Position numbers and translations under genes: made by a program. Positions 3,996-60,544 of a DNA stretch of 64,000 nt are shown here, in pieces (positions within the stretch are counted from its first letter, which is position 1; every line of letters starts with the position of its first letter). The notes below the pieces were generated by a model. That model was not told where the DNA came from. It saw only the letters and a list, made by a program, of their open reading frames with translations, and searched no databases. The stretch is from an uncultured Saprospirales bacterium (GTDB lineage: Bacteria > Bacteroidota > Bacteroidia > Chitinophagales > Saprospiraceae). The stretch spans positions 40-64,039 of the forward strand of contig CALAZP010000190.1 in assembly GCA_937926355.1 (NCBI GenBank), given 5' to 3'.

Positions 3996-4006
3996 TTTAG
4001 AAGGTG

Positions 4007-4014
4007 GATATATA
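4007..4014 (+). promoter_or_regulatory. Intergenic octamer GATATATA (candidate phage promoter -10-like element)
   Basis: Context ggtgGATATATAcaac; 29 nt upstream of the ATG at 4044. Confidence 0.45.
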
Positions 4015-4043
4015 CAACAACTAATTTTCTAATTCAAAAATAA

Positions 4044-27070: not shown

Positions 27071-30000
27071 ATGGCATCACCAAAATTATTTGACTATAAT
27101 TCATCCTTTGGACTGTTAAGGACAAACCCTAAGATTACTGGCAATGTAAAGATCTCTTTGGATTCTTCTGGTGGTGTTTGGTTAAATTCTTTTAACGCAA
27201 ATCCGACACTTAGCACAGAGAAATTCAAAAAGTTTCAGGTAACTGGAAAGGATTCCTACGCCACAGATCTCTATAACTTCTTTGATAAAGGATCAGTCGC
27301 TAACGATCTTATTTTCCAAGTTGGTGAATTTACAGACGGAAGTTCAAAAGCTCAGGAGGATTTTGAGTTCCAATATGACTTCTTTTACGGCAGTGGAGCT
27401 TCTACCCTAATCGACAAAAATTACACTGAAAACTTCAGGTATTTTCAGCCTCTTTGGCTGCGTAATGAACTACCTGAATTCTTTGTTATTTTCAAAGTAC
27501 CAAATCCCGTTAGTTACCCCTATACCACCAATGTAACTAGAATCCGGACTTCGGTTAAATACAAGCTTATACAAGATCCAGAATCGACAGAAACTTTCCA
27601 GATAGCATATGGAAAGGACAATTCAGGTCAAGACATTTTTTATACGGCTAACCAAATTTTCGAGGGACTGAGCTTGTATAATTCCTATACTGTTGTATCC
27701 GGCTCTGGTAAAGTTGCTGAAATGGATGAACTCAAATATCAGCCAAATGTGGATGATGTAGAGTCTTTTTTTAACTCAAAGATATTACCAAATGCTAGCG
27801 TAGTTGCTACTTTTGATTTAAGATCTGGTACCAAGATTGGGAATTATATAAGGAGTATTGTAAACAATAAGAATTACAAGCAATCCCCTATAGATTTTTC
27901 CTTCCAGCAGAATACTTATACGTATTATAACGGAGTTAGCATAAAGGATGGTGTTTTTACTGAGAGGGGAGAACTCCTTTATGATTACCTAATTGATCCT
28001 CAGTCTTCAATTCAATCCGATTTTGAAAACTATGTAACCGACGGCTTCCAGAGAAATGGGGTAATTTGTTCTAATGTGTTGAACATGGAATTTTTGTTCA
28101 ACGATCCAGATTCTGACCTGTACACTATCAATAGGTATTTTGGTTTTTATGTTTCTAAAAATGACCTTGGCGAATTTTTCCTAAACGGGGATTTCTTTTA
28201 CAACTTTAGAAACTCTACTGGTAATTTAAATCTTCCCAAGCCTTCTAGGAATAATATTGGACACTACGAGGATAACAGATCCAACTATCAAAGCAGTACA
28301 GGAGGAGTTAGATTTTATTACGAGGGTGCATCGGGATGGATTCCTGGATCCTACGATGTCAACGTAAATGATCCACAGAAGCTATATTACATAACAGACA
28401 AGTCTGATAGATTTTATTCGCTTAAAAGGTATGAAAATTACAATTCAACTACTAAAACGTGGGCGGATAATGCACCAGAATATGCCCAATATGGACCCTA
28501 TGATGGAACGACTTTTGGAGTGACTGGGAACACAAGCCTAACGACTGGGTCTCTGGTCTTAGGAAATTCCTCAGTAAATCTACAAAATTTTACCGGGTAT
28601 GGTGATAAAATAGGATCGATTAAAGGGATTCTGCCCAGATCCAACGGAAGAGCTAACATTGGTATCGAGTTTACTGAAAATGAACCGTCAGTAGCTGAAA
28701 TTGTTTTTAAGATATTTTGGCCAAACGGTTCTAAGTCAGAATCTGCAGGAAGGTACGATCTAATTAAAAGCGGGGAGTTTGGCGGAACCTTAGTAGGATG
28801 GAAAGCTGGATCTTCATATAATGTTGGGGACGAACATTTCTTTAACGCTATTGACGGGGACACCGAGGATATTGCTTCTTCCTTTTGTGAATGTGTGACC
28901 TCAATTAGCGACGTTGTTTGGGACTCTGCACCTAGTTCATCTACTTCGGTTATCAGAACAAAGGCATCAGGAACCAAGGTTAATAGTGAATATCGGGTTG
29001 CAGTTTATGACGACTATGCAACTTTTGAATCTTTGTATGTTGGTGTTTGGGATAATACTAGTCCATATTCTGCTGGTGATGTTGTCTTAAGTCAAAACAA
29101 ATATTACCAAGCATCGAATAATATACCCGCAGCAGTTCCCGGCTCTGAGAATGTTAGTCCTGACTTAGATCCTACTAACTGGCAAGTTTATTCAACTTTT
29201 TCTCAAAGCGGATTCGTTAAAATTTCTGGGTCTGATGCTTCTACTTTAAGCGGTCCTGTATCTTTTAGTGGAGGAACCGATTATCCACTCTGTAGGGTAG
29301 CTTTTGATATCAAAGAAGTAAATAAGGTAATTCCTGGAAATTATATACAAGTAACCTCTGGAAGTGGGGTAACTGGTGGAGCCTCAATGGTCGAGATCGT
29401 AACCAGATATGTTGAAGATCCTGCCATAGACTCAAATGGAAAAGTTAGTGGATTTAGAGGATATAACGAGTTGTTAGTTGCAAATCTAAGAGACCAAAAG
29501 GCAGTTATTGATTTGGGAACAAGTCAGTCGTTTAACCTGTTTGAAATGCCTAAGGTTAAAACTGGTGTATTTTCATTTTTTGATATCAAGGACTTTGACT
29601 TTGATTTCTGGTCTTCTGAATATGGTGAAACCCCAACCTCAGAGTTTCATAGATACTTCCAGCTCCTACCCGATATTCAGGGACAAATTAAAGACGGAGT
29701 AAAATATCTGGTAAAGTCTGGTGAGATTGTAGTTGACATCGGCACTGTAAACCAGAGAACAATTCCTGCAGGAGGAGCTTTTATCGGATCCTCGGTTGAT
29801 TTTTTTAGAGACTCTGGATTTACAAATAGTGGGGTTTCATCTATCGTTGTACCTGCTATTTTTACTCAAATTGAATGGAAAACCCCATCCTCTTCATACC
29901 CTTCAAAAGCAATAAATTTTGAAAAGAATCTCGACTCTTTTGATGGTTTCTTTGGTATTCAATCGATCAACGAGACCCAATCAGTAACTCAATCAAATAC

Positions 30001-32599
30001 CAAGGAGTTCATTTTCAATTACGGTAAGTTAGAAACTGAATATGAATACCTAGAGGAAAATTATACCACAGCCAGAGCAAATAGATCCAAAATAGTCCCC
30101 TTTATTAACAAGTGGGGATACTTTGGTGGTACTGATGCTAGAGGTCATAGCTATAGACTAAATGCATCTGCAGCATTTAGTCCAACAAACTTTTCTCCAA
30201 GTTTTGAGAAGGAAACCCCAGATCCGATGTATCTCACACACGAATGGATGCTATTGGAAGGTGTTCCTGATGGCTATCCCTCGGACAAGATAGAGAGCCA
30301 GAATAGCTACCTCCCATCTAAGATTGATCTTGCAAAAGTAAGAAGCGCAGATCCGGATGATAGTTTATATTTTTCTTCGTTCTTTACTGTCGAGCCCTCG
30401 GATTATCCAAGTCCATACAACATCTCGATCAACACTACAAAGGAACTGTTTACTCCATTTACTTACAACAGATCTACTGGATTTTATGATACAGTATTTA
30501 GAGGAGCTAAAATTTCTTTGAGAAGAAGAAGTACAGTTGCTGATCCACAAACGGATCTTGAAAAATATGTACCTAACTATAGGGGTTTCGAGGATTATAA
30601 GTTTGCTTCAGTGTTAAGGGTAGTTCCTGAAACTCAAAACACTATACAATCCCCAGTTAGTTACGAAATTATTGAAAACACACAACAGAAGTGTGTGCTT
30701 TTTGTTTGTCAAATCGTTGTTAAAGATTATAGGGCATTACCATTGGGTTATACTGGTGGGACTGGGGGTAATCCTACTGTTGACTATCTACTACTCTATA
30801 GTCTGAGCGATAAGAAAAAAGATGCTGGTGTTGGGGTAACTGGAACTACTGGAGCAACAGGTGTTCCCTTATACGAGATAGATGATATTAAGCTAAGTGC
30901 TGCTTTGGATCTTTCTATGACCTCTGATAGCTCCGTGACACAATTTACAAATCCTGGATTTATCTACACCCTTCCAAATCCGAATTATGATACAGATCTT
31001 AGAGAAGAAATTAACACAATATATCCTGTTGGTGGTACCGGTTCTCTTTCCGCTACTGGGAAGGGTAGCTTTAGTGTTCCTGCTATAAGCTCTACTTATC
31101 CATGGCCAACTGGAAGATCTAAGAATCTGGCCTCTTTTGGGCCGGTGGGTACTAATTATACATTCACCATTCCTTTTGCGTTTGGCTCTCCGGTTACTGT
31201 TCCAGTTGGACCTAAGAGTGCTTATGGAAACAATCCGGTTTTCCAGCTGGAGGGAGGGGAAAAATACTTTGATTTCCTAATTAGGAGAATTTCCCTTTCA
31301 CAAATCTCGGATCGTGTAAATAACGAAAGCCCCTATATAAAATACCTTACATATTCTTGGAATGTTGATACACAAACAACTGAGGTCAGGAGCGATTACT
31401 TCCAAATCTATATGCAGCAGCCAACAGCCCTGCACAGATCAACTGGGGCATATCCAGTTGCAGACTATTCAGGACCACAAACATTAGGGCAGAACCAGCC
31501 CACTGGGTATCAGATAAATGTTGGGGCTAACTATGCTGCTGATATCTTAAGGTATGCTGGTAAGTATGAGCCTCTTTTCAATAAGGTTATTAGATATAAA
31601 AACGATAAAACTGATTCTATTACAGGCTATTCTTCTGTGGACTTGAGTTATAGAAACTGTACCTTTGCTCCGGAGAAGATTAACTTTGGAACTGTTAAGA
31701 ACCTAAATTACAGCAAGGTTTCCCTTGGGAGAAATATACTTGAAAAGTCAGTTAATCTTCCACTTGGACCCGTCTATCCGCTAGTTGGAGAAACTCCAAT
31801 TGCAAGAAAGGACTTTTCTGTATTTCTGTCAACTTGGGATCCTGGATATTTTAACCTTTACACCTCGGCTGTCCAAAATACTCCAGTTGCTGGAACTAGA
31901 TCTATGAGAGAGAATAAGTCTTTCCTAGGTTCTAAAATGATGCAAACTCCTTATACAATTACTACCTATACCTTTATAACTTTGGAAGTTAATAGGACCA
32001 CTGGAGAGACCGATGTACAGAAGATTAATCTCGAAGCAAAAGAAGCTTTAAGCCAGATTCAAAATATAACACCGCAAACATCCAATACTGGAATCGGTCA
32101 GTTGGGAGCGGTATTTTCGAATGTGGATCTTCAAGTTTTTGACGAAGGGATTTACCCTGACGTTGAGGTTTTTTGGCAAAAAGATACAAGAACTAATACC
32201 CTTTATGGATCTATAAGATTGGATAGAATATTAAGAAGATACCTCTTGAATGCCGGAATAAGTAAGGTGTTTGTGGATAATATGATAAGCGAATTTGGTG
32301 TTGGTGATCCAGAGAGTATTAATGATGATATCAAAACATACATCGACAAGAATATAGTTCCAATCTACCAGGGAATAACCTTTGATCTGTTTGTTAAAAA
32401 GACCGGAACAGACTTAAGTTCTACCGAACTATTATTAAGAGGTGATTTAACAAGCCCTGATAGGATTAGATATTCTTACTATTCAGAACCAAATTACAAG
32501 CTAACCAAGAGAAATTCTCTTTCGTATGCTTTTGAGCTTCCATTAGAAAGTGGTAAAAACTATTCTACAACATTTACTTTCCAGATTGAAAAAATATAG
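27071..32599 (+). CDS. Giant virion structural protein, 1842 aa, with an internal CBM5/12-like carbohydrate-binding motif
   Basis: W-x6-Y-x2-GD-V-x6-YYQA...P...NW at 29048-29182; size and position. Confidence 0.5.
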   Translation: MASPKLFDYNSSFGLLRTNPKITGNVKISLDSSGGVWLNSFNANPTLSTEKFKKFQVTGKDSYATDLYNFFDKGSVANDLIFQVGEFTDGSSKAQEDFEFQYDFFYGSGASTLIDKNYTENFRYFQPLWLRNELPEFFVIFKVPNPVSYPYTTNVTRIRTSVKYKLIQDPESTETFQIAYGKDNSGQDIFYTANQIFEGLSLYNSYTVVSGSGKVAEMDELKYQPNVDDVESFFNSKILPNASVVATFDLRSGTKIGNYIRSIVNNKNYKQSPIDFSFQQNTYTYYNGVSIKDGVFTERGELLYDYLIDPQSSIQSDFENYVTDGFQRNGVICSNVLNMEFLFNDPDSDLYTINRYFGFYVSKNDLGEFFLNGDFFYNFRNSTGNLNLPKPSRNNIGHYEDNRSNYQSSTGGVRFYYEGASGWIPGSYDVNVNDPQKLYYITDKSDRFYSLKRYENYNSTTKTWADNAPEYAQYGPYDGTTFGVTGNTSLTTGSLVLGNSSVNLQNFTGYGDKIGSIKGILPRSNGRANIGIEFTENEPSVAEIVFKIFWPNGSKSESAGRYDLIKSGEFGGTLVGWKAGSSYNVGDEHFFNAIDGDTEDIASSFCECVTSISDVVWDSAPSSSTSVIRTKASGTKVNSEYRVAVYDDYATFESLYVGVWDNTSPYSAGDVVLSQNKYYQASNNIPAAVPGSENVSPDLDPTNWQVYSTFSQSGFVKISGSDASTLSGPVSFSGGTDYPLCRVAFDIKEVNKVIPGNYIQVTSGSGVTGGASMVEIVTRYVEDPAIDSNGKVSGFRGYNELLVANLRDQKAVIDLGTSQSFNLFEMPKVKTGVFSFFDIKDFDFDFWSSEYGETPTSEFHRYFQLLPDIQGQIKDGVKYLVKSGEIVVDIGTVNQRTIPAGGAFIGSSVDFFRDSGFTNSGVSSIVVPAIFTQIEWKTPSSSYPSKAINFEKNLDSFDGFFGIQSINETQSVTQSNTKEFIFNYGKLETEYEYLEENYTTARANRSKIVPFINKWGYFGGTDARGHSYRLNASAAFSPTNFSPSFEKETPDPMYLTHEWMLLEGVPDGYPSDKIESQNSYLPSKIDLAKVRSADPDDSLYFSSFFTVEPSDYPSPYNISINTTKELFTPFTYNRSTGFYDTVFRGAKISLRRRSTVADPQTDLEKYVPNYRGFEDYKFASVLRVVPETQNTIQSPVSYEIIENTQQKCVLFVCQIVVKDYRALPLGYTGGTGGNPTVDYLLLYSLSDKKKDAGVGVTGTTGATGVPLYEIDDIKLSAALDLSMTSDSSVTQFTNPGFIYTLPNPNYDTDLREEINTIYPVGGTGSLSATGKGSFSVPAISSTYPWPTGRSKNLASFGPVGTNYTFTIPFAFGSPVTVPVGPKSAYGNNPVFQLEGGEKYFDFLIRRISLSQISDRVNNESPYIKYLTYSWNVDTQTTEVRSDYFQIYMQQPTALHRSTGAYPVADYSGPQTLGQNQPTGYQINVGANYAADILRYAGKYEPLFNKVIRYKNDKTDSITGYSSVDLSYRNCTFAPEKINFGTVKNLNYSKVSLGRNILEKSVNLPLGPVYPLVGETPIARKDFSVFLSTWDPGYFNLYTSAVQNTPVAGTRSMRENKSFLGSKMMQTPYTITTYTFITLEVNRTTGETDVQKINLEAKEALSQIQNITPQTSNTGIGQLGAVFSNVDLQVFDEGIYPDVEVFWQKDTRTNTLYGSIRLDRILRRYLLNAGISKVFVDNMISEFGVGDPESINDDIKTYIDKNIVPIYQGITFDLFVKKTGTDLSSTELLLRGDLTSPDRIRYSYYSEPNYKLTKRNSLSYAFELPLESGKNYSTTFTFQIEKI

Positions 32600-32644: not shown

Positions 32645-34147
32645 ATGCCGAGTCTGAACATAAAAGCTTTAAACGCTGGAGATACCCAGGAGTCTATCAG
32701 GGAAAAGGTAAACTCAAACTTCGACTCAATTGTAGCAGCTGGCGGAGGTCCACAAGGACAACAGGGTGAGCAAGGAGAACAGGGACCGATTGGACCAGCG
32801 GGTCCTAAAGGAGATCCAGGTCAAGAAGGCTTGAGGGGAACTAAATGGTTTGTCCAGGGTTCTGAACCTCTTGGAGGACCGAGCAATCCTATTAGAATCG
32901 GCGATTATTGGGTTCAAACTCTTCTTAATAACTCTATCTATGAATACACAGATTTGGGCTGGATCGATACCGGTCAAAACTTAAAAGCATCTGAGGTTTT
33001 TGAGGTCGTAGCTGGCATCTCTGGACCTACCGGAGGTAAGGATGCTATCGTTATCAGTAGTCCCTTCCCGGAGCTTAATACACTAGTGATTAGTGATTCT
33101 GCAGCTGCAACTTCTACTATAAACCCCACTTATGCTAAGTTTCTGATTTCGTCGAACGGAAGCAATGATTACCCCATCATAGAGTTTTCTAAAACAAACG
33201 TTGGTGGGATTGGAACCCCAGCTGATTATAATAGACATCCACAATTTAGATGGTTAGATGCTGCTGGAAGTAATTACAATTTGCTCTTTTCTGTACCCCA
33301 GGATGATTTTTCTTTAATATCCGGAGGAAGTATGCTTTTGCAGTCGACTTCTTCTACCCTTAACATCTCTGGTAATGGTGGATTAAATATCACATCGGGT
33401 TCTCAAATGACTTTCACCTCAACTGGTGCAATGTCCTTCTCTTCTGGAACATCCTTAATGACTTTTTCTTCTCAGAAATTTAATTTAACATCGTCATTGT
33501 TGGCTCTTAATGTTCCTATGACCATAAGCGGCGTGACATCGCAATCCCCACTACTTAGTCTTCTTAGTAGTGGTTCTGGGGACACTCTAAAAATTCAGTC
33601 TACTTCCTCTTCTTCTTCGTACTATCTTCTTAGACTACTAAGTGCTAGTACTGAAAGATTTAGTGTCAGAAACGATGGTAAGGTAACATTCCAAAGACAG
33701 GTTAATGCTACTAACAATACCCCCTCCAGTTCAACTTCTTTCAGCATTAGTATTAGTGGTATTACTTATGATAGCTGGTTCTATGGTCCTGCCTCAGGTA
33801 TAGTAGGAACTGTTAATACCTACGATTTTGGTCCAGGAAATATTATGTATGCGGATTGGACGACATCAAACCAAAGAATTCTTGGAGTTCCTAACACATC
33901 TGGCAACAGTAATGCTTGGCGAACTTATTTAGCCAGTGATGAATCTATTGTTTTAAAGTATTATGCAGCTAACGGGAAAGAAATAGATGGAATTACATCT
34001 CAAAACGGATCGCCTCCGACAACAATAGGTAACTATACTATTTTTTCTACTGCTGCTAAATCGGTTGAAGTTGTTATTTTAAAAGTTGGAGCAACACCAA
34101 AATGCTACTGGTCTACTTGTGCTGGAGAATGTGGAGTTTTATTCTAA
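32645..34147 (+). CDS. Collagen-like tail fibre protein (paralog 1)
   Basis: 11 G-X-Y triplets (aa 35-67, nt 32747-32845), the N-terminal adaptor motif, and a post-collagen W..GD.W...Y.Y...W motif. Confidence 0.75.
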   Translation: MPSLNIKALNAGDTQESIREKVNSNFDSIVAAGGGPQGQQGEQGEQGPIGPAGPKGDPGQEGLRGTKWFVQGSEPLGGPSNPIRIGDYWVQTLLNNSIYEYTDLGWIDTGQNLKASEVFEVVAGISGPTGGKDAIVISSPFPELNTLVISDSAAATSTINPTYAKFLISSNGSNDYPIIEFSKTNVGGIGTPADYNRHPQFRWLDAAGSNYNLLFSVPQDDFSLISGGSMLLQSTSSTLNISGNGGLNITSGSQMTFTSTGAMSFSSGTSLMTFSSQKFNLTSSLLALNVPMTISGVTSQSPLLSLLSSGSGDTLKIQSTSSSSSYYLLRLLSASTERFSVRNDGKVTFQRQVNATNNTPSSSTSFSISISGITYDSWFYGPASGIVGTVNTYDFGPGNIMYADWTTSNQRILGVPNTSGNSNAWRTYLASDESIVLKYYAANGKEIDGITSQNGSPPTTIGNYTIFSTAAKSVEVVILKVGATPKCYWSTCAGECGVLF

Positions 34148-40774: not shown

Positions 40775-41446
40775 TTGAAAACATTAGTCGGGATAGACTT
40801 TTCCCTTAATTCACCAGCATTCTGCATTTTGAGAGACAACCAATTCACTTGGGGATCTCTGACCAGAAGTGATCGTACAGAAGATTCCTTAAAAAAGAAT
40901 TCTAAAAAACCTTACTCCGTCTTATCTGAGGATAAATCCGAAGATTATGTCCTGATGTTTATGTCAAAGGATAAAATGCCAGACGACTACTCCGAGAGAG
41001 AAAGGATAAAAATAGATTATTTCCAAGAACTTGTCGATGTGTTTTGGTCCGAGATTGAGAACCTCTGTGGTGGAGATGACATTGTGGTAGCTATGGAAGG
41101 ACTCAGCTTTTCTTCGAACGGAAATGCTTTAATAGATATTTCCATGGCAACTGCCCTTCTAAGGAAAAAAATAGTGGACCACACAGGAAGTGATAATTTC
41201 TATGTGTATTCTCCCACATCTGTGAAAAAGTTTGCTTACAAGGGAAATGCAAAAAAACACGAACTCTATAATTCTCTAATAGAGCACAGATTTCCCGAAA
41301 CTAATCTGAGGTCATTCACTACTATTTTAGAAGAAAACAAGGATGAATGGATAACTCCTTCTGGCAACGTAAATAAGCCACTTGACGATATTATCGATTC
41401 AACTTGGATATGTTTGTTTTTGCATGACTCAATCAAAGAAGATTAA
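40775..41446 (+). CDS. RuvC-like Holliday junction resolvase (RNase H fold)
   Basis: VGIDFSLNSPA (Asp 1), VVAMEGLSFSS (Glu), SPTSVKKFAYKGNAKKHEL, DDIIDSTWICLFL (C-terminal acidic pair). TTG start is uncertain. Confidence 0.65.
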   Translation: MKTLVGIDFSLNSPAFCILRDNQFTWGSLTRSDRTEDSLKKNSKKPYSVLSEDKSEDYVLMFMSKDKMPDDYSERERIKIDYFQELVDVFWSEIENLCGGDDIVVAMEGLSFSSNGNALIDISMATALLRKKIVDHTGSDNFYVYSPTSVKKFAYKGNAKKHELYNSLIEHRFPETNLRSFTTILEENKDEWITPSGNVNKPLDDIIDSTWICLFLHDSIKED

Positions 41447-42152
41447 TATACTCATTCCTCTTGGCGGTGCTGGAAGGAGATTTACTGAGGTAGGGTATAA
41501 GCAGGTAAAGCCTTTTATAGATGTAAAAGGTGAAACTATGATTAGGTCAGTTATCAAAAACCTGAACCATAGAGATGCACACTTTATATTTGTTGTAAAT
41601 GAGGAGTATATCTCCCCTAAGGAGTTTAAGTCCCATATAGAAGATATGGAGATCTCTTATGATATTTTCTCAACCCCCACCTTAACTCAAGGACCTGCTT
41701 CAACAGTTCTAATTGCCAAAGAATCTATAAACAACGAAGTTCCCCTCATTGTTATAAACTGTGATCAAATTATCCTGGATTTCGATTTGGGTCATTTAAT
41801 GAACTTTGCAAATTCAACGGGTTGTGATGGATTGTTAGGATGCTTCCTTTCTTCCTCTAAAAAGAACAGCTATGTAAAACTTGATCCTAACGGTGAGGTT
41901 TGTGATGTAAAGGAGAAAATAGTTATTTCCAATATAGCTACGAATGGATTGCATTTCTGGAAGCATGGTGAATATTTTGTCTCCAGTGCAGAACAGATGA
42001 TAGAATCTAATGACAGATACAACAACGAATTCTATGTTGCCCCCACCTACAATTATCTCATAAAAGATGGAAAAAAAATATTGCCTTTCTTCTATAATCT
42101 TCACTTTCCAATAGGAACCCCGGAGGACCTGGAAAGATTTTTAACGGTTTAG
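41424..42152 (+). CDS. Sugar/alcohol-phosphate nucleotidyltransferase (NTP_transferase, LicC/GCD1-like)
   Basis: ILIPLGGAGRRFTEVGYKQVKPFIDVKGETMI, the G-x-G-x-R..KP loop. I chose the ATG at 41424 over the listed TTG at 41382. Confidence 0.6.
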   Translation: MTQSKKINILIPLGGAGRRFTEVGYKQVKPFIDVKGETMIRSVIKNLNHRDAHFIFVVNEEYISPKEFKSHIEDMEISYDIFSTPTLTQGPASTVLIAKESINNEVPLIVINCDQIILDFDLGHLMNFANSTGCDGLLGCFLSSSKKNSYVKLDPNGEVCDVKEKIVISNIATNGLHFWKHGEYFVSSAEQMIESNDRYNNEFYVAPTYNYLIKDGKKILPFFYNLHFPIGTPEDLERFLTV

Positions 42153-42204: not shown

Positions 42205-42420
42205 ATGAACGAAGCAAAAAACATTAATAAACCCACTAAAAAGGCATGGAGTATAGCTTTTGTTATGTGGCGTTATTTCAAGTGGATATTAATCCCTGCG
42301 TGGCTTATTTTATGCGTAAACTTCGGTGCTTTTTTAGGTAAGTGCCTTTGGTTAACAATGACATACTTTGGTGTAGAAGATAACTTTGCAAGTTTTATTG
42401 AGTGGTTGGTTTGGTTTTAA
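42205..42420 (+). CDS. Small membrane protein, 71 aa
   Basis: Hydrophobic WILIPAWLILCVNFGAFLGKCLWLTMTYF. Confidence 0.5.
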   Translation: MNEAKNINKPTKKAWSIAFVMWRYFKWILIPAWLILCVNFGAFLGKCLWLTMTYFGVEDNFASFIEWLVWF

Positions 42421-42441: not shown

Positions 42442-42765
42442 ATGGAGGTTTTTAGAATAGAAGAAATGAAAGATGGGTGGTATGCTGGTAATTTTTCCCC
42501 GGCAGCATACCAAACAGAACAATTTGAGATTTGCTACAAAAAGCATTTTAAGGGTGAAAAATGGCCAAAACATTATCACAAGGAGGCAGACGAAATTAAT
42601 TATCTCAGATCGGGTAAAATGATAATACAAGGCAGGGAGCTGAGTGCTGGAGATATATTCATATTGAGAAAAAACGAAATTGCTGATCCTGTTTTTTTGG
42701 ATGACTGTGAAGTCTTTATTGTAAAATCTCCTTCTGTGCCTGGAGATAAATTTGTGATTGAATGA
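42442..42765 (+). CDS. Cupin-fold protein, 107 aa (NDP-sugar ketoisomerase/epimerase-like or dioxygenase-like)
   Basis: KHYHKEADEINYLRSGKMIIQG..GDIFIL cupin motifs; stop overlaps the next start (ATGA). Confidence 0.5.
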   Translation: MEVFRIEEMKDGWYAGNFSPAAYQTEQFEICYKKHFKGEKWPKHYHKEADEINYLRSGKMIIQGRELSAGDIFILRKNEIADPVFLDDCEVFIVKSPSVPGDKFVIE

Positions 42766-43997
42766 TTAGTATTTTTAAAAATAAGGATGAATTTGATATT
42801 TCTGACTATTTTGTGGTTAGGTATTATTTGGAAGCTAAAACTTCTTTGAGAGATGCCTCTTGGAATTTGGCTATCGGTCAAAGTATCGGTAACCCGACGA
42901 ATCGCAGTGAATGGGAAACTGATGAAATGTTTGAAAATCACAGTTGTTTCATTCTTGCTTCTGAACAAGATCTTAGCCAAAAAAAAGATGGTGAAGTTGA
43001 AATTGCTTTCCCCTTGGCAAACATTAATTTGGAGGAGGATGGGATATCACAGATCCTTTGCCATATAGCCGGTGGACAAGTCGATATAGAAGAGGTGAAG
43101 CAGTGTCATGTTTTGGATATTGTTCTGCCTCAAGAAGTTGAAGACTCTTTTTCTTTGAAACCTGCTTACGGTATTAGTGGATGGAGAAGATTCAATGGAG
43201 TTGATGCCAAGCCTTTTCTAGGGGGAATAGTTAAACCTAAAGTAGGCATGCCCCCGGAGGTATTGCTAGAAGCTGTTAAAGAGATGGTTTATGGAGGGGT
43301 CAACTTTATTAAAGAGGATGAGCTCCTAGCAAACCCTTCTCACTGTCCACTAGAACAAAGAGTTCCTTTAATTTCATCTTGGTTAAAAGAAAATGCTCCG
43401 GATGTGATCTATTGTTTCTGTATCAATGGTGATAGCCCATATGCTTTGGAGAGAGCAAATTTTGTTGCAAATAATGGCGGGAACGGAATCCACATAAATG
43501 TCTGGAGCGGTCTTGGGGTATATCGTGCTATAAGGAAGCAAAACCCTAACATATGGATACATTTTCAAAAAAGTGGTGATAAATTCTTTACTGACAAAAG
43601 GGCACCATTCCACATCTACTGGCCTGTGATTTGTAAAATTGCTGGATGGTCTGGTGTGGATTCTATACATGCTGGAATGATTGGAGGTTATATGAACCAG
43701 GATAATGATGAGATACGGGATACTCTAAAAGTCCTCTGGCATTACAATATAGTTCCAGCTCTCAGTTGTGGAATGCATCCTGGTCTGGTTGATTATATCA
43801 ATGAATCTATACACAGTGTGGATTGGATGGCTAATGTTGGAGGAGCTATGCATGGACATCCAATGGGAACTAGAGCTGGTGGCTTGGCAATGAAGCAAGC
43901 CATCAATAATGATTTCCAAGAAGAGGAATATGTTTGCGCCATAAAGAAATGGGGAAAAAGAACATTTTCTAAAGACCTAGATTACAGGATATTTTAG
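42762..43997 (+). CDS. RuBisCO large-subunit-like protein (form IV-type RLP)
   Basis: GGIVKPKVG, GGVNFIKEDE, NIWIHFQ, GVDSIHAGMIGGY, PALSCGMHPG, NVGGAMHGHPMGTRAGG align to the RbcL catalytic motifs. Confidence 0.85.
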   Translation: MISIFKNKDEFDISDYFVVRYYLEAKTSLRDASWNLAIGQSIGNPTNRSEWETDEMFENHSCFILASEQDLSQKKDGEVEIAFPLANINLEEDGISQILCHIAGGQVDIEEVKQCHVLDIVLPQEVEDSFSLKPAYGISGWRRFNGVDAKPFLGGIVKPKVGMPPEVLLEAVKEMVYGGVNFIKEDELLANPSHCPLEQRVPLISSWLKENAPDVIYCFCINGDSPYALERANFVANNGGNGIHINVWSGLGVYRAIRKQNPNIWIHFQKSGDKFFTDKRAPFHIYWPVICKIAGWSGVDSIHAGMIGGYMNQDNDEIRDTLKVLWHYNIVPALSCGMHPGLVDYINESIHSVDWMANVGGAMHGHPMGTRAGGLAMKQAINNDFQEEEYVCAIKKWGKRTFSKDLDYRIF

Positions 43998-43998
43998 G

Positions 43999-44478
43999 AT
44001 GAGACTAATATCACACCGGGGAAATATAAAGGGGCCAATACCATCAAGAGAGAACAACCTTGACTACATACAAGAAGCTCTTGATCTTGGTTATGATGTG
44101 GAGATAGATGTTTGGATATCTGGATCTTCACTTTATTTAGGACACGATTCCCCAAATTCTAAGGTCTCCTTAGATTGGCTTATGGAGAGATCAGACAACC
44201 TTTGGATCCACTGCAAAAACATCTCTGCTCTTGTGTATCTAAAGGAGTATGTTGAATTCAATGTATTTTGGCATGAACAAGACAGAATAACTCTTACTTC
44301 TAAGTCTTTCATTTGGGCTTTCCCTGGAAATCAGCCCATAAATAAAAGTATCGCAGTTCTTCCTGAGATCTATGATGATCCTGTTAACGGATGCTGTGGA
44401 ATTTGCTCAGATTATATAGAGAAGTACAAATTTTTAAGTACAAATGAAAGTAGCTCTTTTACTTCCTGGACAGATTAG
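43999..44478 (+). CDS. Compact glycerophosphodiester phosphodiesterase (GDPD)-like protein
   Basis: ISHRGN, RENN, DVEIDVW, LGHD, LWIHCKN, GICSDY match the GDPD N- and C-terminal signatures in only 159 aa. Confidence 0.55.
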   Translation: MRLISHRGNIKGPIPSRENNLDYIQEALDLGYDVEIDVWISGSSLYLGHDSPNSKVSLDWLMERSDNLWIHCKNISALVYLKEYVEFNVFWHEQDRITLTSKSFIWAFPGNQPINKSIAVLPEIYDDPVNGCCGICSDYIEKYKFLSTNESSSFTSWTD

Positions 44479-45226
44479 GGAGGCAAAAGAAACCTTTCCC
44501 TACTTAAAAGGCAGAATTTTGGATAGGTTTAAGCCAGATGTTTTTATATCTACCTGGAGCCCATCTGAAACTATAAAAAATTCCCTTCATGCAGAAACAC
44601 ACTACCTTACTGACACCCTAAGCACCGACACTTTAGCAAGTCTTTATTCTCCAGTAACCATAAAGATGGACAAGTTTGAATCCCCGGGTATATCAAGGAT
44701 AGTAGATAAAGCGTGGTCGTTTGAAAGCTATGGCCCACAAACTGGTGAGATAAATCCAGTTTCGGTTTTCTTGATGTGGTATAAGATAAGACAGTCCTTT
44801 CTCCTTTTAGAGGAGCATGAAAACCTAACTGGTGAGAGATATGATTATATTATAAAAGGAAGAATGGACATAAAAATCCACAACGACATCCCTTTGGATC
44901 CAAATCTAAAAACTATATGTATTCCTCCCGGTTTTGATTGGAAGGGCGGGGTTAATGATATTTTTGCATGGGGAGGTAGGGAAGCAATGGAACACTACTC
45001 AAAACTCTACGAGATGATGGAAGAATACATTTTCTCTGGTGTTTACTTTCACCCCGAGACACTTTTAAAGCATCATATACTTAATTCTGAATTTAACCTT
45101 TCCCGCCCTATGGTAAAGGTATCCTTAAGAGGTAAGAGAGTGTGGGAAATTGAATCCACGGGTGAACGAATGGATAAAAAAAATTATGAATATATACAAT
45201 CTAAGGGAAACATTTGGGACACTTAG
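44444..45226 (+). CDS. Hypothetical protein, 260 aa; tentatively a WavE-like/GT-A-type glycosyl- or phosphotransferase
   Basis: Pattern VALLLPGQIR...DVFISTWS...YDYIIKGRMD...NDIFAWGG..M..Y. Confidence 0.3.
   Translation: MKVALLLPGQIREAKETFPYLKGRILDRFKPDVFISTWSPSETIKNSLHAETHYLTDTLSTDTLASLYSPVTIKMDKFESPGISRIVDKAWSFESYGPQTGEINPVSVFLMWYKIRQSFLLLEEHENLTGERYDYIIKGRMDIKIHNDIPLDPNLKTICIPPGFDWKGGVNDIFAWGGREAMEHYSKLYEMMEEYIFSGVYFHPETLLKHHILNSEFNLSRPMVKVSLRGKRVWEIESTGERMDKKNYEYIQSKGNIWDT
45189..45196 (+). promoter_or_regulatory. Variant octamer AATATATA(CAA), candidate promoter for the SSB gene
   Basis: tgAATATATAcaatc inside the 3' end of the upstream gene; 67 nt upstream of the ATG at 45264. Confidence 0.2.
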
Positions 45227-51441: not shown

Positions 51442-53355
51442 ATGGCTGGGATAAATCACTTATATGACATTTACAACAAAAAAGGATCTGACTTTGTCAA
51501 TCAGCTTTTTAATCGTTATGTAACCATCAACGAAAAGATGGATGGCTCGGCTTTTTCTTTTGAAAGAGATAAGGAATCTGGAAATTTCCGGTTTTATAGG
51601 AGGGATCAAAGAAATCCAATAACTTTAGTGGACAGGACTCTCATGAAATATTACGAGAAGCCAATCCAGTATATCGAATCTCTTCCTCCAAACATACTTG
51701 AAAAAATACCTAGAGGATTGAGATTCGGGCTGGAATATTTTTCAAACACTAAACCTGTAGAGATCTCCTACGATAGATTGCCAAAGAATAACTTGATTCT
51801 TTCTTATATCCACAAGATGGGTACTGGAGGTAAGATAGAAAGCACTATTCAGGATAAGGGGGAATTAGACAATTGGGCAGATCTGATTGGGGTTGAAAGA
51901 CCACCAATTGTTTTTCAGGGAGTTCTAGACGAGGACCAGAAATCTGAACTTATGGAGTTTTTGAACACCCCGTTCAAGGATCTTGTCGAAAGATTCAAAA
52001 CTCAATCTTTTGTTAGGTTTGTTATTAAGACCCTGAACCCAGAGTTAACCAAAACTGCTCTCAACGATGACCTAGATAAGGACGTCGAGGGAATAGTTTT
52101 TAGGTTTGGCGAGCCCGATGGTGATAGTGATACCGTTTTAGCTAAAATGGTAGATCCAATATTCACCGAGATTGCTAAGCAAAAGTTTGCTGACAAAAAG
52201 AGCAAAAAGCCTTCTGATTTTCTAGGTATTACGCTGCTCGACGTAATGAATTTCATTTTGGAGAAAGATCTTTCCGAATTTGAAGTTGAAGGCGAGTCTG
52301 AGGACGAGAGATACATTTCCTTTATAGGAGACGTTTTTGTCAAGTTCCTTGATGAATACGAGGAAAAGTATAAGGGTACTGATTTCGAAGAACCAGATTA
52401 TCTAAAAAGAGAAGAATTTAGGTTAAACAAGGAAAAAATTAAGGATAGAAGAGTTCTTAAGTATGTTGAAAAAGACGACTCGTTCGAATCTCTATTCAAA
52501 CTCATTCTTAATTCCTTTAGAAAAATAAAAACCAGAGCTGGTGGAATAATCACAGCTGGTATGAAGGACCAAATGAATCTTTTGATCAAAGACATTAAGG
52601 ACTACATCAAAAAACCAGAGAAGAACGTAAACGAATCTAGGTTTATTAGCTTCGGTGAATTTAGGAAGGAGAACACCCCCTCTGTAGAATACCTACAGGA
52701 GGAGGATGATTCGGATACAAGTGATGATCCTTTTTTCTCATACCGTGAATTCATCAGCAAACTTGAGACTATTGATAACGAGGAGTTGCCAAACGAGGTA
52801 GAGATTCTTAAAGAGGACGATACCGAGGAAAGAAAGCCGGTAAATGTCATAATGGGTAGATTTCAGCCCTTCCACCAGGGGCACCTCAAGATGGCAAAGG
52901 ATCTTATGGAGAAAAACGATTTGCCTTCATTCGTTGTTGTAGTTTATCCTGGCCACAACAAGTCTGGAAAATCCCCATTTGATGAAGAATCTATCAAAAG
53001 ATACATGAATGCGATAGTTGCCAACAATGAAGAGATAGAAGGCTATGTTCTTGCTACTCGGGGACTTCTTGGTTCTGCCATTGCAAGACTAATAGATATG
53101 GGATATGATCCTAAGTTAATTGGTGCAGGCCCCGACCGAATAGATGACTACTCTAAGCAGATAGACTATGTTAAGATGTCTGATATAAAAGACAAAATAA
53201 GCGATGACCTAAGCATAGTAGAAACCCCAAGAGTAACGAGCGGTACCGAAGTTAGGCAAGCTATGAAAGACCAAGATTTTGCCAAGTTTAAAAAGATGGT
53301 TCCAAAAGAGGTCTCAAACCTCTATAATGACCTCATTACAAGCGTCAGGGACTGA
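51442..53355 (+). CDS. Fusion protein: N-terminal covalent nucleotidyltransferase (RNA/DNA ligase-like) domain plus C-terminal NMN adenylyltransferase-like (HxGH cytidylyltransferase fold) domain
   Basis: Ligase motifs: I INEKMDGS, III RFGLEYF, IV VEGIVFRF, V VLAKMVDP. C-terminal: IMGRFQPFHQGH and TSGTEVRQAM. Confidence 0.65.
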   Translation: MAGINHLYDIYNKKGSDFVNQLFNRYVTINEKMDGSAFSFERDKESGNFRFYRRDQRNPITLVDRTLMKYYEKPIQYIESLPPNILEKIPRGLRFGLEYFSNTKPVEISYDRLPKNNLILSYIHKMGTGGKIESTIQDKGELDNWADLIGVERPPIVFQGVLDEDQKSELMEFLNTPFKDLVERFKTQSFVRFVIKTLNPELTKTALNDDLDKDVEGIVFRFGEPDGDSDTVLAKMVDPIFTEIAKQKFADKKSKKPSDFLGITLLDVMNFILEKDLSEFEVEGESEDERYISFIGDVFVKFLDEYEEKYKGTDFEEPDYLKREEFRLNKEKIKDRRVLKYVEKDDSFESLFKLILNSFRKIKTRAGGIITAGMKDQMNLLIKDIKDYIKKPEKNVNESRFISFGEFRKENTPSVEYLQEEDDSDTSDDPFFSYREFISKLETIDNEELPNEVEILKEDDTEERKPVNVIMGRFQPFHQGHLKMAKDLMEKNDLPSFVVVVYPGHNKSGKSPFDEESIKRYMNAIVANNEEIEGYVLATRGLLGSAIARLIDMGYDPKLIGAGPDRIDDYSKQIDYVKMSDIKDKISDDLSIVETPRVTSGTEVRQAMKDQDFAKFKKMVPKEVSNLYNDLITSVRD

Positions 53356-60076: not shown

Positions 60077-60544
60077 ATGGCAAATACAGACAATCAATGT
60101 TCAGACCTACAGATCAAAAATCTTTATCCCGAATCTAAAGATACTCTAGGTGACATTTTAAATCTTCAGGCAGAAACCCAGAGGAATGTTTACGGCTACA
60201 ACTTCGATGAAATGTCTCTAAGGGACCTAATGGAGTTTTGGCACATGAACAACCACGCACTGATCGACGAAATCCACGAAGCAACCGACGCACTAGGTGG
60301 CATCAAGGACGGCAACGGAAACGCTATATGGAAGAGATGGAAAAGTGCATACTCTACATATTCAGACAAATGTTTTTCCGATTTATCCGAATCCGACAAA
60401 ATGGAATGCAAGTTTGAGATTATAGATATGCTACATTTCTTCATGAACTATGCAGCTTCCATTGGAATGACTTCCCAAGAAATGTACAACATGTACATGA
60501 GCAAGAACGAGGAAAATCGTCGAAGACAGGCAAACAATTACTAA
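60077..60544 (+). CDS. All-alpha NTP pyrophosphohydrolase (MazG / dimeric dUTPase / T4 gp56 dCTPase-dUTPase class)
   Basis: IDEIHEATDAL (ExxE), IWKRWKSAY, KFEIIDMLHF (ExxD), C-terminal KNEENRRRQ. Confidence 0.65.
   Translation: MANTDNQCSDLQIKNLYPESKDTLGDILNLQAETQRNVYGYNFDEMSLRDLMEFWHMNNHALIDEIHEATDALGGIKDGNGNAIWKRWKSAYSTYSDKCFSDLSESDKMECKFEIIDMLHFFMNYAASIGMTSQEMYNMYMSKNEENRRRQANNY

What the first reader, a model, noticed from the sequence alone, without database searches (positions are those of the whole stretch)
42762..43997. Phage RuBisCO-like protein: carbamate/metal triad kept, phosphate-binding residues replaced
This alignment to RbcL (spinach numbering) was done by eye. VKPKVG corresponds to K175/K177. 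NFIKEDE corresponds to K201, D203 and E204. WIHFQKS keeps H294 but changes R295 to F and H298 to S. SIHAGMIGGY keeps H327 but changes K334 to Y. ALSCGMH keeps S379, changes G380 to C and keeps G381. VGGAMHGHPMG is the 402-404 loop. N-domain residues (E60, T65, N123) are not recognisable. This is the form IV RLP signature: enolase/isomerase chemistry on a non-RuBP substrate, not CO2 fixation. I am not aware of any characterised virus-encoded RLP.
Basis: partly seen in the sequence, partly recalled or inferred. Interest (0 to 1): 0.85.

Follow-up and report, generated by a model that had tools for sequence, protein, structure and literature searches.

The report
Phage RuBisCO-like enzyme in sugar cassette
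A T4-like phage carries a full-length, strongly conserved relative of the CO2-fixing enzyme RuBisCO that lacks the residues needed to fix CO2 and probably helps build an unusual activated sugar for surface glycans; such phage genes were first reported in 2019, but their function has never been tested.

Summary
The ORF at 42762-43997 (+, 411 aa) is real. It is a full-length member of the RuBisCO large-subunit superfamily: both Pfam domains pass their thresholds and the best PDB match has E = 3e-32. K175, K177, K201, D203, E204, H327, S379, G381 and G403/404 are kept, and K334 is Y and G380 is C. One motif was read two residues out of register: the His in WIHFQKS is H292, so H294 is Q, R295 is K and H298 is D. 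This signature is invariant in 101 viral and cellular homologs, and dN/dS is about 0.1, so the protein is an active, specialised, non-carboxylating enzyme.

It is not a first. Jaffe et al. 2019 described about 80 phage "IV-like" RLPs that group with Beckwithbacteria, with function unknown.

New here is the context. The RLP sits in a mobile cassette of sugar-phosphate nucleotidyltransferase, cupin, RLP, a mini-GDPD-like protein and a GT-A-fold transferase. The cassette lies in glycan-biosynthesis islands of phages, SAR11, DPANN, CPR and a cultured Azospirillum. Cultured cyanophages have the same module with a heptose kinase/SIS isomerase or an aldolase-family enzyme in place of the RLP.

Best reading: a Mg-dependent enolising isomerase/epimerase that feeds a nucleotide-sugar pathway. 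This is moderately interesting and is a new member of a known kind.

The parts
41382..42152 (+). Sugar-phosphate nucleotidyltransferase (NT). The likely true start is the ATG at 41424, as called in public assemblies (242 aa).
   Evidence: Pfam NTP_transferase E=3.6e-13 and NTP_transf_3 E=9.8e-8. PHROG 3980 E=3.5e-57. Best solved relative is 4evw, an 'NDP-sugar pyrophosphorylase', at 1e-32, followed by Man-1-P, Glc-1-P and heptose-1-P transferases. Present next to the RLP in 77 of 80 viral loci and in about 32 of 36 cellular loci. Gene call of 242 aa.
42205..42420 (+). 71-aa hydrophobic ORF between NT and cupin. It is lineage-specific and its membership in the cassette is doubtful.
   Evidence: ORF and translation. 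No homolog in any of the 80 IMG/VR loci. Called as a gene in identical public contigs.
42442..42765 (+). Small metal-type cupin (107 aa) with an HxHx4Ex6G motif. Its stop overlaps the RLP start (ATGA).
   Evidence: PHROG 24762 E=9.7e-30. Family profile against PDB finds small Cupin_2 proteins, quercetinase and KdgF. Members match Pfam Cupin_7 and Cupin_2. H44, H46, E51 and C89 are invariant. Found in 73 of 80 viral loci and fused to NT in 10 loci. ATGA overlap seen.
42762..43997 (+). RuBisCO-like protein (411 aa), the finding itself. The Mg/carbamate triad and the P1-phosphate glycines are kept. The carboxylation residues are replaced by an invariant G105/Q269/K270/D273/Y310/C336 set.
43999..44478 (+). 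P159: a mini glycerophosphodiester-phosphodiesterase-like protein. It has the N-terminal catalytic motifs H6-R7, E18-N19, E35-x-D37 and H49-D50, but is only about 150 aa.
   Evidence: PHROG 34507 E=6.3e-32. Family profile against PDB GDPDs 7e0v at 1.7e-4 and 3i10 at 2.8e-4, over the first ~50 residues only. Invariant residues. No single-sequence Pfam hit. Found in 58 of 80 viral loci. Fused to P260 in L070 and to NT in L101.
44444..45226 (+). P260: a predicted GT-A-fold, nucleotide-sugar-dependent transferase. Some homologs carry DUF7796, and cyanophage homologs are annotated 'capsular polysaccharide biosynthesis protein'.
   Evidence: PHROG 13607 E=9e-18. AF2 model with pLDDT 90.2 and pTM 0.88. 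Foldseek against PDB finds GT6 glycosyltransferases (BoGT6a, ABO GTA/GTB) at E~1e-6, probability 1.0, but TM only 0.4-0.5. PF25072 found in homologs. Cyanophage homologs.

Best explanation
The gene encodes an active, non-carboxylating RuBisCO-fold enzyme.

Inferred mechanism: it uses a carbamylated Lys184-Asp186-Glu187 Mg2+ site to enolise a phosphorylated keto-sugar held through the conserved P1-phosphate pocket. It then reprotonates the enediolate, so it acts as an isomerase or epimerase and not as a carboxylase.

Shown by context: it is the 'front end' of a five-gene cassette of NT, cupin, RLP, mini-GDPD and GT-A transferase.

Inferred pathway: the cassette converts a common sugar phosphate into an unusual nucleotide-activated sugar and transfers it to a glycan. 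The most likely target is an LPS/capsule-like surface glycan of the infected cell or a virion glycan. The substrate and product are not identified.
For: 1. Full-length RuBisCO superfamily fold.
2. The catalytic core for Mg binding and enolisation (K175, K177, K201, D203, E204, H327) and the P1 pocket (S379, G381, G403, G404) are invariant in 67 viral and 34 cellular homologs down to about 36-40% identity. The replaced positions are also invariant: N123G, H294Q, R295K, K334Y, G380C, plus an N-domain loop G39-Q-S-x-G-N-P..R48..E52. dN/dS is 0.10-0.12. Together these indicate a specific activity under selection.
3. Context across 80 IMG/VR loci: NT is present in 77, cupin in 73, P159 in 58 and P260 in 34. 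The flanking phage core genes are shared by only 15-20 loci, so this is a mobile cassette. The gene order NT-cupin-RLP is nearly fixed.
4. Rosetta-stone fusions exist: NT-cupin, HAD(beta-phosphoglucomutase family)-NT, NT-HAD, P159-P260 and NT-P159.
5. Other recurrent neighbours are an SDR epimerase/dehydratase, sugar O-methyltransferases, GT2, UDP-GlcNAc 2-epimerase, DegT aminotransferase and an NDP-sugar dehydrogenase.
6. The same pairing occurs in cellular genomes inside glycan islands: GT17, GT61, RmlD-like, GT9 and a CMP-sugar synthetase in SAR11. A compact P159-RLP-cupin-NT operon is present in cultured Azospirillum oleiclasticum.
7. P260 models as a GT-A glycosyltransferase fold.
8. Cultured cyanophages carry the same NT/cupin/P159/P260 module in annotated LPS/capsule-type clusters without an RLP. 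In its place they have an HddA-type heptose kinase (3k85, E=7e-75), or a class II aldolase-family enzyme plus SIS phosphoheptose isomerases. The variable slot is therefore filled by sugar-phosphate-tailoring enzymes.
Against: - No biochemical data exist, and the substrate, nucleotide and acceptor are all unknown.
- The RLP model is only of moderate confidence (pLDDT 70), and its active-site loops are modelled poorly.
- The P260 fold match has low TM (0.4-0.5), and the GDPD assignment of P159 rests on about 50 N-terminal residues.
- A phosphodiesterase has no obvious role in a nucleotide-sugar pathway.
- In the window the cassette sits in the replication/recombination module with no other glycan genes nearby, so the acceptor could be something other than a surface glycan.
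- Some 'cellular' members lie on short MAG/SAG contigs that could be mis-binned viral DNA.
- Gene neighbourhood is correlative.
Confidence: 0.55

Rival explanations
1. The RLP-cupin pair works in nucleoside by-product salvage, like the MTA-isoprenoid shunt. There a DeepYkr RLP isomerises 5-methylthioribulose-1-P and an adjacent cupin removes the methylthio group to give DXP. The alternative model is Bacillus methionine salvage (MtnW enolase, MtnX HAD phosphatase, MtnD cupin dioxygenase). On this reading the phage would recycle MTA or 5'-deoxyadenosine during infection.
For: The RLP is immediately preceded by, and translationally coupled to, a cupin. Adjacent rlp1/cupin genes are a documented functional pair in R. 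rubrum and R. palustris (PMC5893883). HAD-family domains occur in the cassette in some loci. The distal phosphate site is altered (R295K, H298D), which would fit a ketose-1-phosphate with an uncharged tail. The cupin has an invariant Cys.
Against: No MtnP, MtnK, MtnA or MtnB genes were seen in the window or in the loci examined. The near-universal partner is a nucleotidyltransferase, and the cupin is missing from most SAR11 loci. The context is glycan biosynthesis. NCBIfam MtnW models score 78-111 bits against cut-offs of 409-514. N123 is Gly; from my recollection the YkrW enolase uses a Lys there as its base. The cupin matches only generic Cupin_2/Cupin_7 and not the ARD family. I could not compare it directly with the R. 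rubrum cupin.
Confidence: 0.12
2. The chemistry is the same (synthesis of an NDP-sugar), but the acceptor is the phage's own DNA. The cassette would supply and attach a sugar for base hypermodification, as glucosyl- or arabinosyl-hydroxymethylcytosine does in T-even phages, to evade host restriction.
For: In this window and in the roughly 16-20 syntenic loci, the cassette lies between a RuvC-like resolvase and gp32/primase/helicase, which is the DNA-metabolism module. No other glycan genes are nearby. It is self-contained, ending in a predicted glycosyltransferase. The phage is T4-like.
Against: No hydroxymethylase or other base-modification gene is detectable in the 64-kb window, though the rest of the genome is unseen. 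The same cassette occurs in cellular chromosomes (SAR11, Verrucomicrobia, Azospirillum) and in viral islands full of LPS/capsule-type genes. P260 homologs in cyanophages are annotated as capsule-biosynthesis proteins.
Confidence: 0.1
3. It is a bona fide CO2-fixing or AMP-pathway RuBisCO (form III-like) that boosts host carbon metabolism during infection.
For: The best profile and structure matches include form III enzymes: TIGR03326 at 1.7e-45, and 2cwx/2d69 at the top. The Mg/carbamate triad and K175 are intact.
Against: K334->Y, E60->G, N123->G and H294->Q are invariant across the family. By established RuBisCO mechanism these residues are needed for CO2 addition and for hydration/cleavage. 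The TIGR03326 score is 155.6 bits against a cut-off of 497. No AMP phosphorylase, R15P isomerase or PRK was found in any neighbourhood examined.
Confidence: 0.01
4. It is a catalytically dead or decaying RuBisCO homolog kept for a structural or regulatory role, or simply a passenger gene.
For: Several canonical residues are replaced, and no function has been demonstrated.
Against: dN/dS is about 0.1. About 90 residues are invariant across 43 viral sequences, including the whole metal site. The signature is identical in 101 viral and cellular members. The gene is translationally coupled within a conserved operon.
Confidence: 0.03

Closest known systems
Phage 'Form IV-like' RuBisCO-like proteins of Jaffe, Castelle, Dupont & Banfield 2019 (Mol Biol Evol 36:435; PMC6389311)
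   Same: Both are encoded on myovirus-type and large phage contigs from many environments. Both are highly divergent from canonical RLPs, with altered key residues. Both group with Beckwithbacteria (CPR) sequences. I find a Beckwithbacteria MAG homolog at 51% identity with the same cassette, inside the crown of the family tree. This is almost certainly the same clade.
   Different: That paper left the function 'unclear' and does not mention the nucleotidyltransferase, cupin or glycan context. I could not align directly to their sequences. The SAR11, DPANN, Verrucomicrobia and Azospirillum members found here extend the distribution beyond phage plus Beckwithbacteria.
DeepYkr RLP (5-methylthioribulose-1-P 1,3-isomerase) with its adjacent cupin methylsulfurylase, in the MTA-isoprenoid shunt of R. 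rubrum and R. palustris
   Same: Both have an RLP next to a small cupin. The likely chemistry is also shared: Mg-dependent enolisation and isomerisation of a ketose phosphate without C-C cleavage (PMC5893883).
   Different: There are no salvage genes in the context. The universal partner here is an NT, and the cupin is dispensable in many cellular loci. Sequence membership is untested. The nearest characterised RLPs are at most 30% identical.
YkrW/MtnW 2,3-diketo-5-methylthiopentyl-1-phosphate enolase
   Same: The fold is the same, as are the carbamate/Mg triad and the loss of carboxylation residues. PDB 2oej/2oek match at about 2e-21.
   Different: Scores are 111 and 78 bits against cut-offs of 409 and 514. 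Position 123 is Gly. There are no mtn genes nearby.
Form III (archaeal) RuBisCO
   Same: It gives the highest-scoring profile and structure matches. The length is similar and no small subunit is present.
   Different: K334, E60, N123, H294 and T65/W66 are missing. The score is 155.6 bits against a cut-off of 497. There are no AMP-pathway partners.
OiaX-type RLPs of D-apiose catabolism (3-oxo-isoapionate-4-phosphate decarboxylase)
   Same: These are the nearest annotated RLPs on plasmids, at 25-30% identity. They are a precedent for an RLP acting on an unusual sugar-acid phosphate.
   Different: The score is 121 bits against a cut-off of 700. They work in a catabolic context with DUF1537 kinases, not a biosynthetic NT/GT context.
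GDP-heptose-type nucleotide-sugar modules in cultured cyanomyophage LPS/capsule-like clusters (S-SM2, SynMITS9220M01, S-CAM9, Bellamy)
   Same: They share homologous NT, cupin, P159 and P260 genes in the same tight arrangement.
   Different: They have no RLP. The sugar-phosphate step is provided by SIS phosphoheptose isomerases, an HddA-type kinase and HAD phosphatases, or by a class II aldolase-family protein. These modules are themselves uncharacterised.

Membership tests
RuBisCO large-subunit superfamily | Significant match to both the catalytic TIM-barrel domain (PF00016) and the N-terminal domain (PF02788) | tested here: met
   PF00016 gives 107.9 bits (threshold 30.1) and PF02788 gives 24.5 bits (threshold 20.7). 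Foldseek neighbours are exclusively RuBisCO/RLP.
RuBisCO large-subunit superfamily | Carbamylatable Lys201 plus the Asp203/Glu204 metal triad, and Lys175 | tested here: met
   K184, D186, E187 and K158 are invariant in 101 homologs.
Bona fide RuBisCO (forms I-III) | Carboxylation residues K334, E60 and N123, and hydration/cleavage residue H294 | tested here: not met
   They are Y310, G39, G105 and Q269, and are invariant across the family.
Bona fide RuBisCO (form III equivalog TIGR03326) | Score above the curated cut-off | tested here: not met
   155.6 bits against 497.45.
Form IV-YkrW (MtnW enolase) | Score above the NCBIfam equivalog cut-offs (PRK09549, TIGR03332) | tested here: not met
   111.2 against 409, and 78.1 against 513.6.
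Form IV-YkrW (MtnW enolase) | Methionine-salvage gene context (mtnK/A/B/X/D) | tested here: not met
   None is present in the window or in about 118 related loci. The partners are NT, cupin, P159 and P260.
Form IV-DeepYkr (MTRu-1-P 1,3-isomerase) | Adjacent cupin-type methylsulfurylase, with mtnP/mtnA elsewhere in the pathway | tested here: inconclusive
   An adjacent cupin is present, but it is of a generic type. No mtnP or mtnA is seen. No reference DeepYkr or cupin sequence was available to compare.
OiaX (apiose-pathway RLP) | Score above the equivalog cut-off | tested here: not met
   121.3 bits against 700. Identity to plasmid OiaX genes is 25-30%.
Phage 'IV-like' RLP clade (Jaffe et al. 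2019) | Encoded on phage (myovirus-type) contigs | tested here: met
   The window has T4-like structural and replication genes. There are 123 IMG/VR loci.
Phage 'IV-like' RLP clade (Jaffe et al. 2019) | Groups with Beckwithbacteria sequences, apart from canonical RLPs | tested here: met
   The Beckwithbacteria MAG homolog L090 is 51% identical and lies within the family in an NJ tree. The 3nwr RLP, form III and form I fall outside. The tree has no support values.
Phage 'IV-like' RLP clade (Jaffe et al. 2019) | Direct clustering with the published sequences | not testable with these tools
Form IV-GOS (metagenome-only RLP clade of Tabita et al. 2007) | Clustering with the GOS reference sequences | not tested
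   This is a lead from memory, prompted by the SAR11 and marine-virus distribution. The defining papers are not held, and the clade is only mentioned in a review.

The most novel reading that the evidence does not exclude
This RLP clade performs the first anabolic role known for the RuBisCO fold. It would be the committed step of an undescribed route to a rare nucleotide-activated sugar, for example by C3-epimerisation or keto-migration of a ketose 1-phosphate, echoing RuBisCO's own xylulose-bisphosphate 'misfire'. It would replace the isomerase/kinase/phosphatase steps of heptose-type pathways. The cassette is traded between SAR11, DPANN, CPR and their viruses, and so re-decorates cell or virion surface glycans and shifts phage-host recognition in some of the most abundant microbes in the ocean.
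Probability: 0.35. Interest if true: 0.75.

Novelty: new member of a known kind. Interest (0 to 1): 0.5.

Why it matters
Phage-encoded RLPs have had no assigned function since they were reported in 2019. The same may be true of the metagenome-only marine RLP clade reported in 2007.

The conserved cassette turns that open question into a testable one. The partners are a nucleotidyltransferase, a cupin, a mini-GDPD and a GT-A transferase. The RLP slot is interchangeable with heptose-pathway enzymes in cultured cyanophages. The cassette also occurs in a complete Pelagibacter chromosome and in a cultivable Azospirillum.

If the inference is right, the RuBisCO fold has been recruited for glycan-precursor biosynthesis. 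Viruses would then carry it as an auxiliary gene that remodels surface sugars rather than carbon fixation. This matters when 'rbcL-like' viral genes in metagenomes are interpreted, because they should not be counted as carbon-fixation potential.

Tried and rejected
- GenBank phages: tblastn of the RLP against 50,697 records found no match, and megablast of 38-50 kb also found nothing. PHROGs has no RLP family. The BFVD viral structure library has no hit at E<=1e-3. The family is therefore absent from deposited and cultured phages and known only from metagenomes.
- Literature: I searched for a characterised viral RLP, or for an RLP linked to a cupin, nucleotidyltransferase or nucleotide sugar, and found nothing beyond Jaffe 2019. 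The Tabita reviews that define IV-GOS are not held.
- Cupin subtype: Pfam and PDB give only generic cupin matches. It is not ARD, RmlC or PMI.
- P159 in Pfam: no single-sequence hit. Only the profile reaches GDPDs.
- P260 against PDB by sequence: nothing. A fold search was needed.
I redid it with database homologs.
- Promoter and terminator scan of 40.3-46.4 kb: no excess over shuffles.
- DNA-modification genes in the window: none recognisable.
- Azospirillum operon flanks: no Pfam hits, probably because naive ORF calls are spurious at 73% GC.
- Bona fide carboxylase and decaying pseudo-enzyme were considered and rejected on residue and selection evidence.
Full report
**The observation**

It matches Pfam RuBisCO_large at E=7.6e-31, covering profile positions 5-281 of 299. 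It matches RuBisCO_large_N at E=3.3e-5, covering positions 14-119 of 120. Both are above the curated thresholds. It also matches 99 distinct RuBisCO/RLP sequences in the PDB; the best are the form III enzyme 2cwx (2.9e-32) and the Burkholderia RLP 3nwr (7.3e-32). An AlphaFold2 model built from a shallow alignment is only of moderate confidence (pLDDT 70, pTM 0.69). It still shows the N-terminal domain and eight barrel strands. Its structural neighbours are exclusively RuBisCO-superfamily chains, with form III and form IV structures interleaved at TM about 0.6. The refutation condition of a degenerate, truncated barrel is therefore not met.

**Residue map**

It aligns 1-475 without gaps to plant RbcL crystal-structure chains, so its numbering is canonical. 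A profile of 101 family members aligns to it at E=2.4e-38.

Residues at the canonical positions are as follows (N-domain positions from the 2cwx alignment):
- Kept: K175=K158, K177=K160, K201=K184, D203=D186, E204=E187, H327=H303, S379=S335, G381=G337, G403/404=G360/361.
- Replaced: T173->I156, D202->E185, K334->Y310, G380->C336, N123->G105, E60->G39, T65->N44, W66->P45.
The His is H292, so H294->Q269, R295->K270 and H298->D273.

Every one of these identities, the substitutions included, is invariant or nearly so in 67 viral and 34 cellular homologs. The N-domain loop G39-Q-S-x-G-N-P...R48...E52 is invariant among the viral sequences. dN/dS against the nearest homologs is 0.10-0.12.

On established knowledge of the RuBisCO mechanism (recalled, not re-derived here), the residues have these roles:
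- The carbamate/Mg triad and K175 carry out enolisation.
- K334, E60 and N123 stabilise CO2 addition.
- H294 acts in hydration and cleavage.
- G381, G403 and G404 bind the C1 phosphate.
- R295, H298 and H327 bind the distal phosphate.

The signature therefore points to an active enzyme. It can bind Mg and a C1-type phosphate and can enolise a keto-sugar. It cannot carboxylate or cleave it, and its distal pocket is remodelled, with Lys kept and Asp gained.

**The genome**

The window is a tailed phage of T4-like organisation. It has a baseplate wedge, tail tube, tail fibres, RuvC-like resolvase, gp32, primase, helicase, family-B polymerase and RNR. It is distant from cultured phages: the helicase is at most 43% identical to any deposited phage, and the best hits are uncultured huge phages. 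The exact RLP sequence occurs on public metagenomic contigs of up to about 168 kb.

**Prior art**

Jaffe et al. 2019 (PMC6389311) reported about 80 non-redundant 'Form IV-like' RLPs on phage contigs from IMG/VR and groundwater. Some were Myoviridae and one was a curated ~200-kb phage. They grouped with two Beckwithbacteria sequences as an outgroup to all RLPs, and the function was left open. My searches recover the same picture:
- 2,337 database homologs at E<=1e-10.
- 123 IMG/VR loci on contigs of up to 518 kb.
- A Beckwithbacteria MAG homolog at 51% identity.

The finding is thus a new member of an already described but uncharacterised clade. That paper does not discuss the gene neighbourhood. 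No deposited phage genome, PHROG family or BFVD model contains such a protein.

**Context, the main new result**

Across 80 IMG/VR loci the RLP is accompanied by homologs of four window neighbours:
- The nucleotidyltransferase at 41382-42152, in 77 loci.
- The cupin at 42442-42765, in 73 loci.
- The 159-aa protein at 43999-44478, in 58 loci.
- The 260-aa protein at 44444-45226, in 34 loci.

The phage core genes that flank the cassette in the window are shared by only 15-20 loci. The gene order NT-cupin-RLP is almost fixed. In the window the cupin stop overlaps the RLP start (ATGA). Fusion proteins tie the members together:
- NT-cupin in ten loci.
- HAD(beta-phosphoglucomutase family)-NT in about fourteen loci.
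- Single cases of NT-HAD, P159-P260 and NT-P159.

What the partners are:
- The NT is a sugar-1-phosphate nucleotidyltransferase-type enzyme. Its nearest solved relative is the uncharacterised 4evw, followed by Man-1-P, Glc-1-P and heptose-1-P transferases.
- The cupin has a canonical HxHx4Ex6G metal motif but no specific subfamily.
- P159 carries the N-terminal catalytic motifs of glycerophosphodiester phosphodiesterases in a protein of only about 150 aa.
- P260 models confidently (pLDDT 90). It resembles GT-A-fold GT6 glycosyltransferases, although TM is only 0.4-0.5.

Other recurrent neighbours are an SDR epimerase/dehydratase, sugar O-methyltransferases, GT2, UDP-GlcNAc 2-epimerase, DegT aminotransferase and an NDP-sugar dehydrogenase.

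**Cellular members**

The family also occurs in cellular genomes:
- Pelagibacterales, including a complete chromosome and SAG contigs longer than 170 kb.
- DPANN archaea.
- CPR bacteria.
- Verrucomicrobia.
- The cultured Azospirillum oleiclasticum.

In these genomes too the RLP is next to the NT in about 32 of 36 loci. P159 is often present, and the cupin or P260 sometimes. In SAR11 the island includes GT17, GT61, RmlD-like, GT9 and CMP-sugar synthetase genes. Azospirillum has a compact P159-RLP-cupin-NT operon.

A distance tree without support values shows three things:
- The family is one long-stemmed clade outside form I, form III and the 3nwr RLP.
- Its basal subclades are cellular only (SAR11, DPANN, Verrucomicrobia).
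- Its crown interleaves viral and cellular sequences, and the window lies in a virus-only subclade.

**Non-orthologous displacement**

The partner genes, unlike the RLP, do occur in cultured Synechococcus myophages, inside annotated LPS/capsule-like clusters.
- SynMITS9220M01 has NT-cupin-P260-P159, which is the window's cassette minus the RLP. It is followed by a GHMP kinase that is 7e-75 to D-glycero-D-manno-heptose phosphate kinases.
- S-SM2 has NT-NT, a class II aldolase-family protein (best solved match fuculose-1-P aldolase), SIS phosphoheptose isomerases, P159, P260 and a cupin.

The conserved module is therefore NT, cupin, P159 and P260. The variable slot is always filled by an enzyme that tailors a sugar phosphate. 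This is the strongest argument that the RLP does the same.

**Mechanism**

Shown:
- A conserved, selected, full-length RuBisCO-fold enzyme with an intact Mg/enolisation core and without the carboxylation residues.
- Obligate genomic coupling to a nucleotidyltransferase, and frequent coupling to a cupin, a mini-GDPD and a GT-A-like protein, in glycan islands.

Inferred:
- The RLP enolises and then isomerises or epimerises a phosphorylated keto-sugar.
- The cupin, by analogy with cupin-type PMI/PGI enzymes and with NT-cupin bifunctional PMI-GMP enzymes (recalled knowledge), and in some lineages a HAD mutase or phosphatase, convert the product to the NT substrate.
- The NT activates it and P260 transfers it.

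Unknown:
- The sugar, the nucleotide and the acceptor.
- The role of P159.

I put 0.55 on this general model. Rivals:
- A salvage-type RLP-cupin pair like the MTA-isoprenoid shunt: 0.12.
- The same pathway with phage DNA as the acceptor: 0.10.
- A bona fide carboxylase: 0.01.
- A dead homolog: 0.03.

**Verdict**

The interpretation as a non-carboxylating RLP is sound, but the gene does not belong to any characterised form IV clade, and viral RLPs are already published. Novelty: a new member of a known, uncharacterised kind. Interest is moderate (0.5). The value lies in the cassette context, which gives a concrete, testable function and a cultivable model organism.

Noticed in passing
window 51442-53355 (+): A 637-aa protein combines an RNA-ligase domain (residues 26-235) with a C-terminal cytidylyltransferase-like nucleotidyltransferase domain (residues 470-523). 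This is an unusual fusion in the replication module.
   Followed up: no
window 58568-59980 (+): A 470-aa ORF matches the family-B DNA polymerase exonuclease domain and only the first ~125 positions of the polymerase domain (PF00136 positions 16-140 of 453). The next genes are a MazG-like NTP pyrophosphohydrolase (60077-60544) and the RNR small subunit (60570-61553). The polymerase therefore looks split or truncated.
   Followed up: no
window 42205-42420 (+): A 71-aa hydrophobic ORF is inserted between the NT and the cupin. It has no homolog in any of the 80 related viral loci, yet is called as a gene in identical public contigs.
   Followed up: partly
L121 (Synechococcus phage SynMITS9220M01, MT408532, locus 3929-4249): The cupin homolog in this cultured cyanophage is under-annotated. 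Only a 46-aa 'hypothetical protein' is annotated where a 106-aa cupin ORF matches at E=8e-38.
   Followed up: partly
L066, L071, L073, L077: Four RLP-cassette loci come from bins labelled as giant-virus MAGs (GVMAG). They carry NT-cupin fusion genes. Either nucleocytoviruses also hold the cassette or these bins contain phage contigs.
   Followed up: no
L010, L011, L017-L020, L025, L036, L042, L057, L068, L069: These loci carry 453-465-aa fusions of a beta-phosphoglucomutase-family HAD domain to the cassette-type nucleotidyltransferase (bPGM model at E=1e-23, below its cut-off). This suggests a mutase or phosphatase step directly coupled to nucleotide activation.
   Followed up: partly
L114 3942-6722 (Azospirillum oleiclasticum RWY-5-1-1, NZ_JABFFR010000067): A cultured, 73%-GC alphaproteobacterium carries a compact P159-RLP-cupin-NT operon. 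It is a tractable organism for testing the function of this RLP clade.
   Followed up: partly
window 10116-14147, 15807-19469, 23489-27043, 27071-32599 (+): Four very large ORFs (1343, 1220, 1184 and 1842 aa) lie in the structural module. None was searched against PHROGs or Pfam. The other ORFs tested in this part of the window mostly had no PHROG match, apart from a tail-fibre hit at 32645-34147.
   Followed up: no
window 43999-44478 and family alignment A2: P159 is a ~150-aa 'mini' version of the GDPD phosphodiesterase fold. It has all the N-terminal catalytic motifs invariant, plus further invariant H71, K73 and H92. Its role in a biosynthetic cassette is unexplained.
   Followed up: partly
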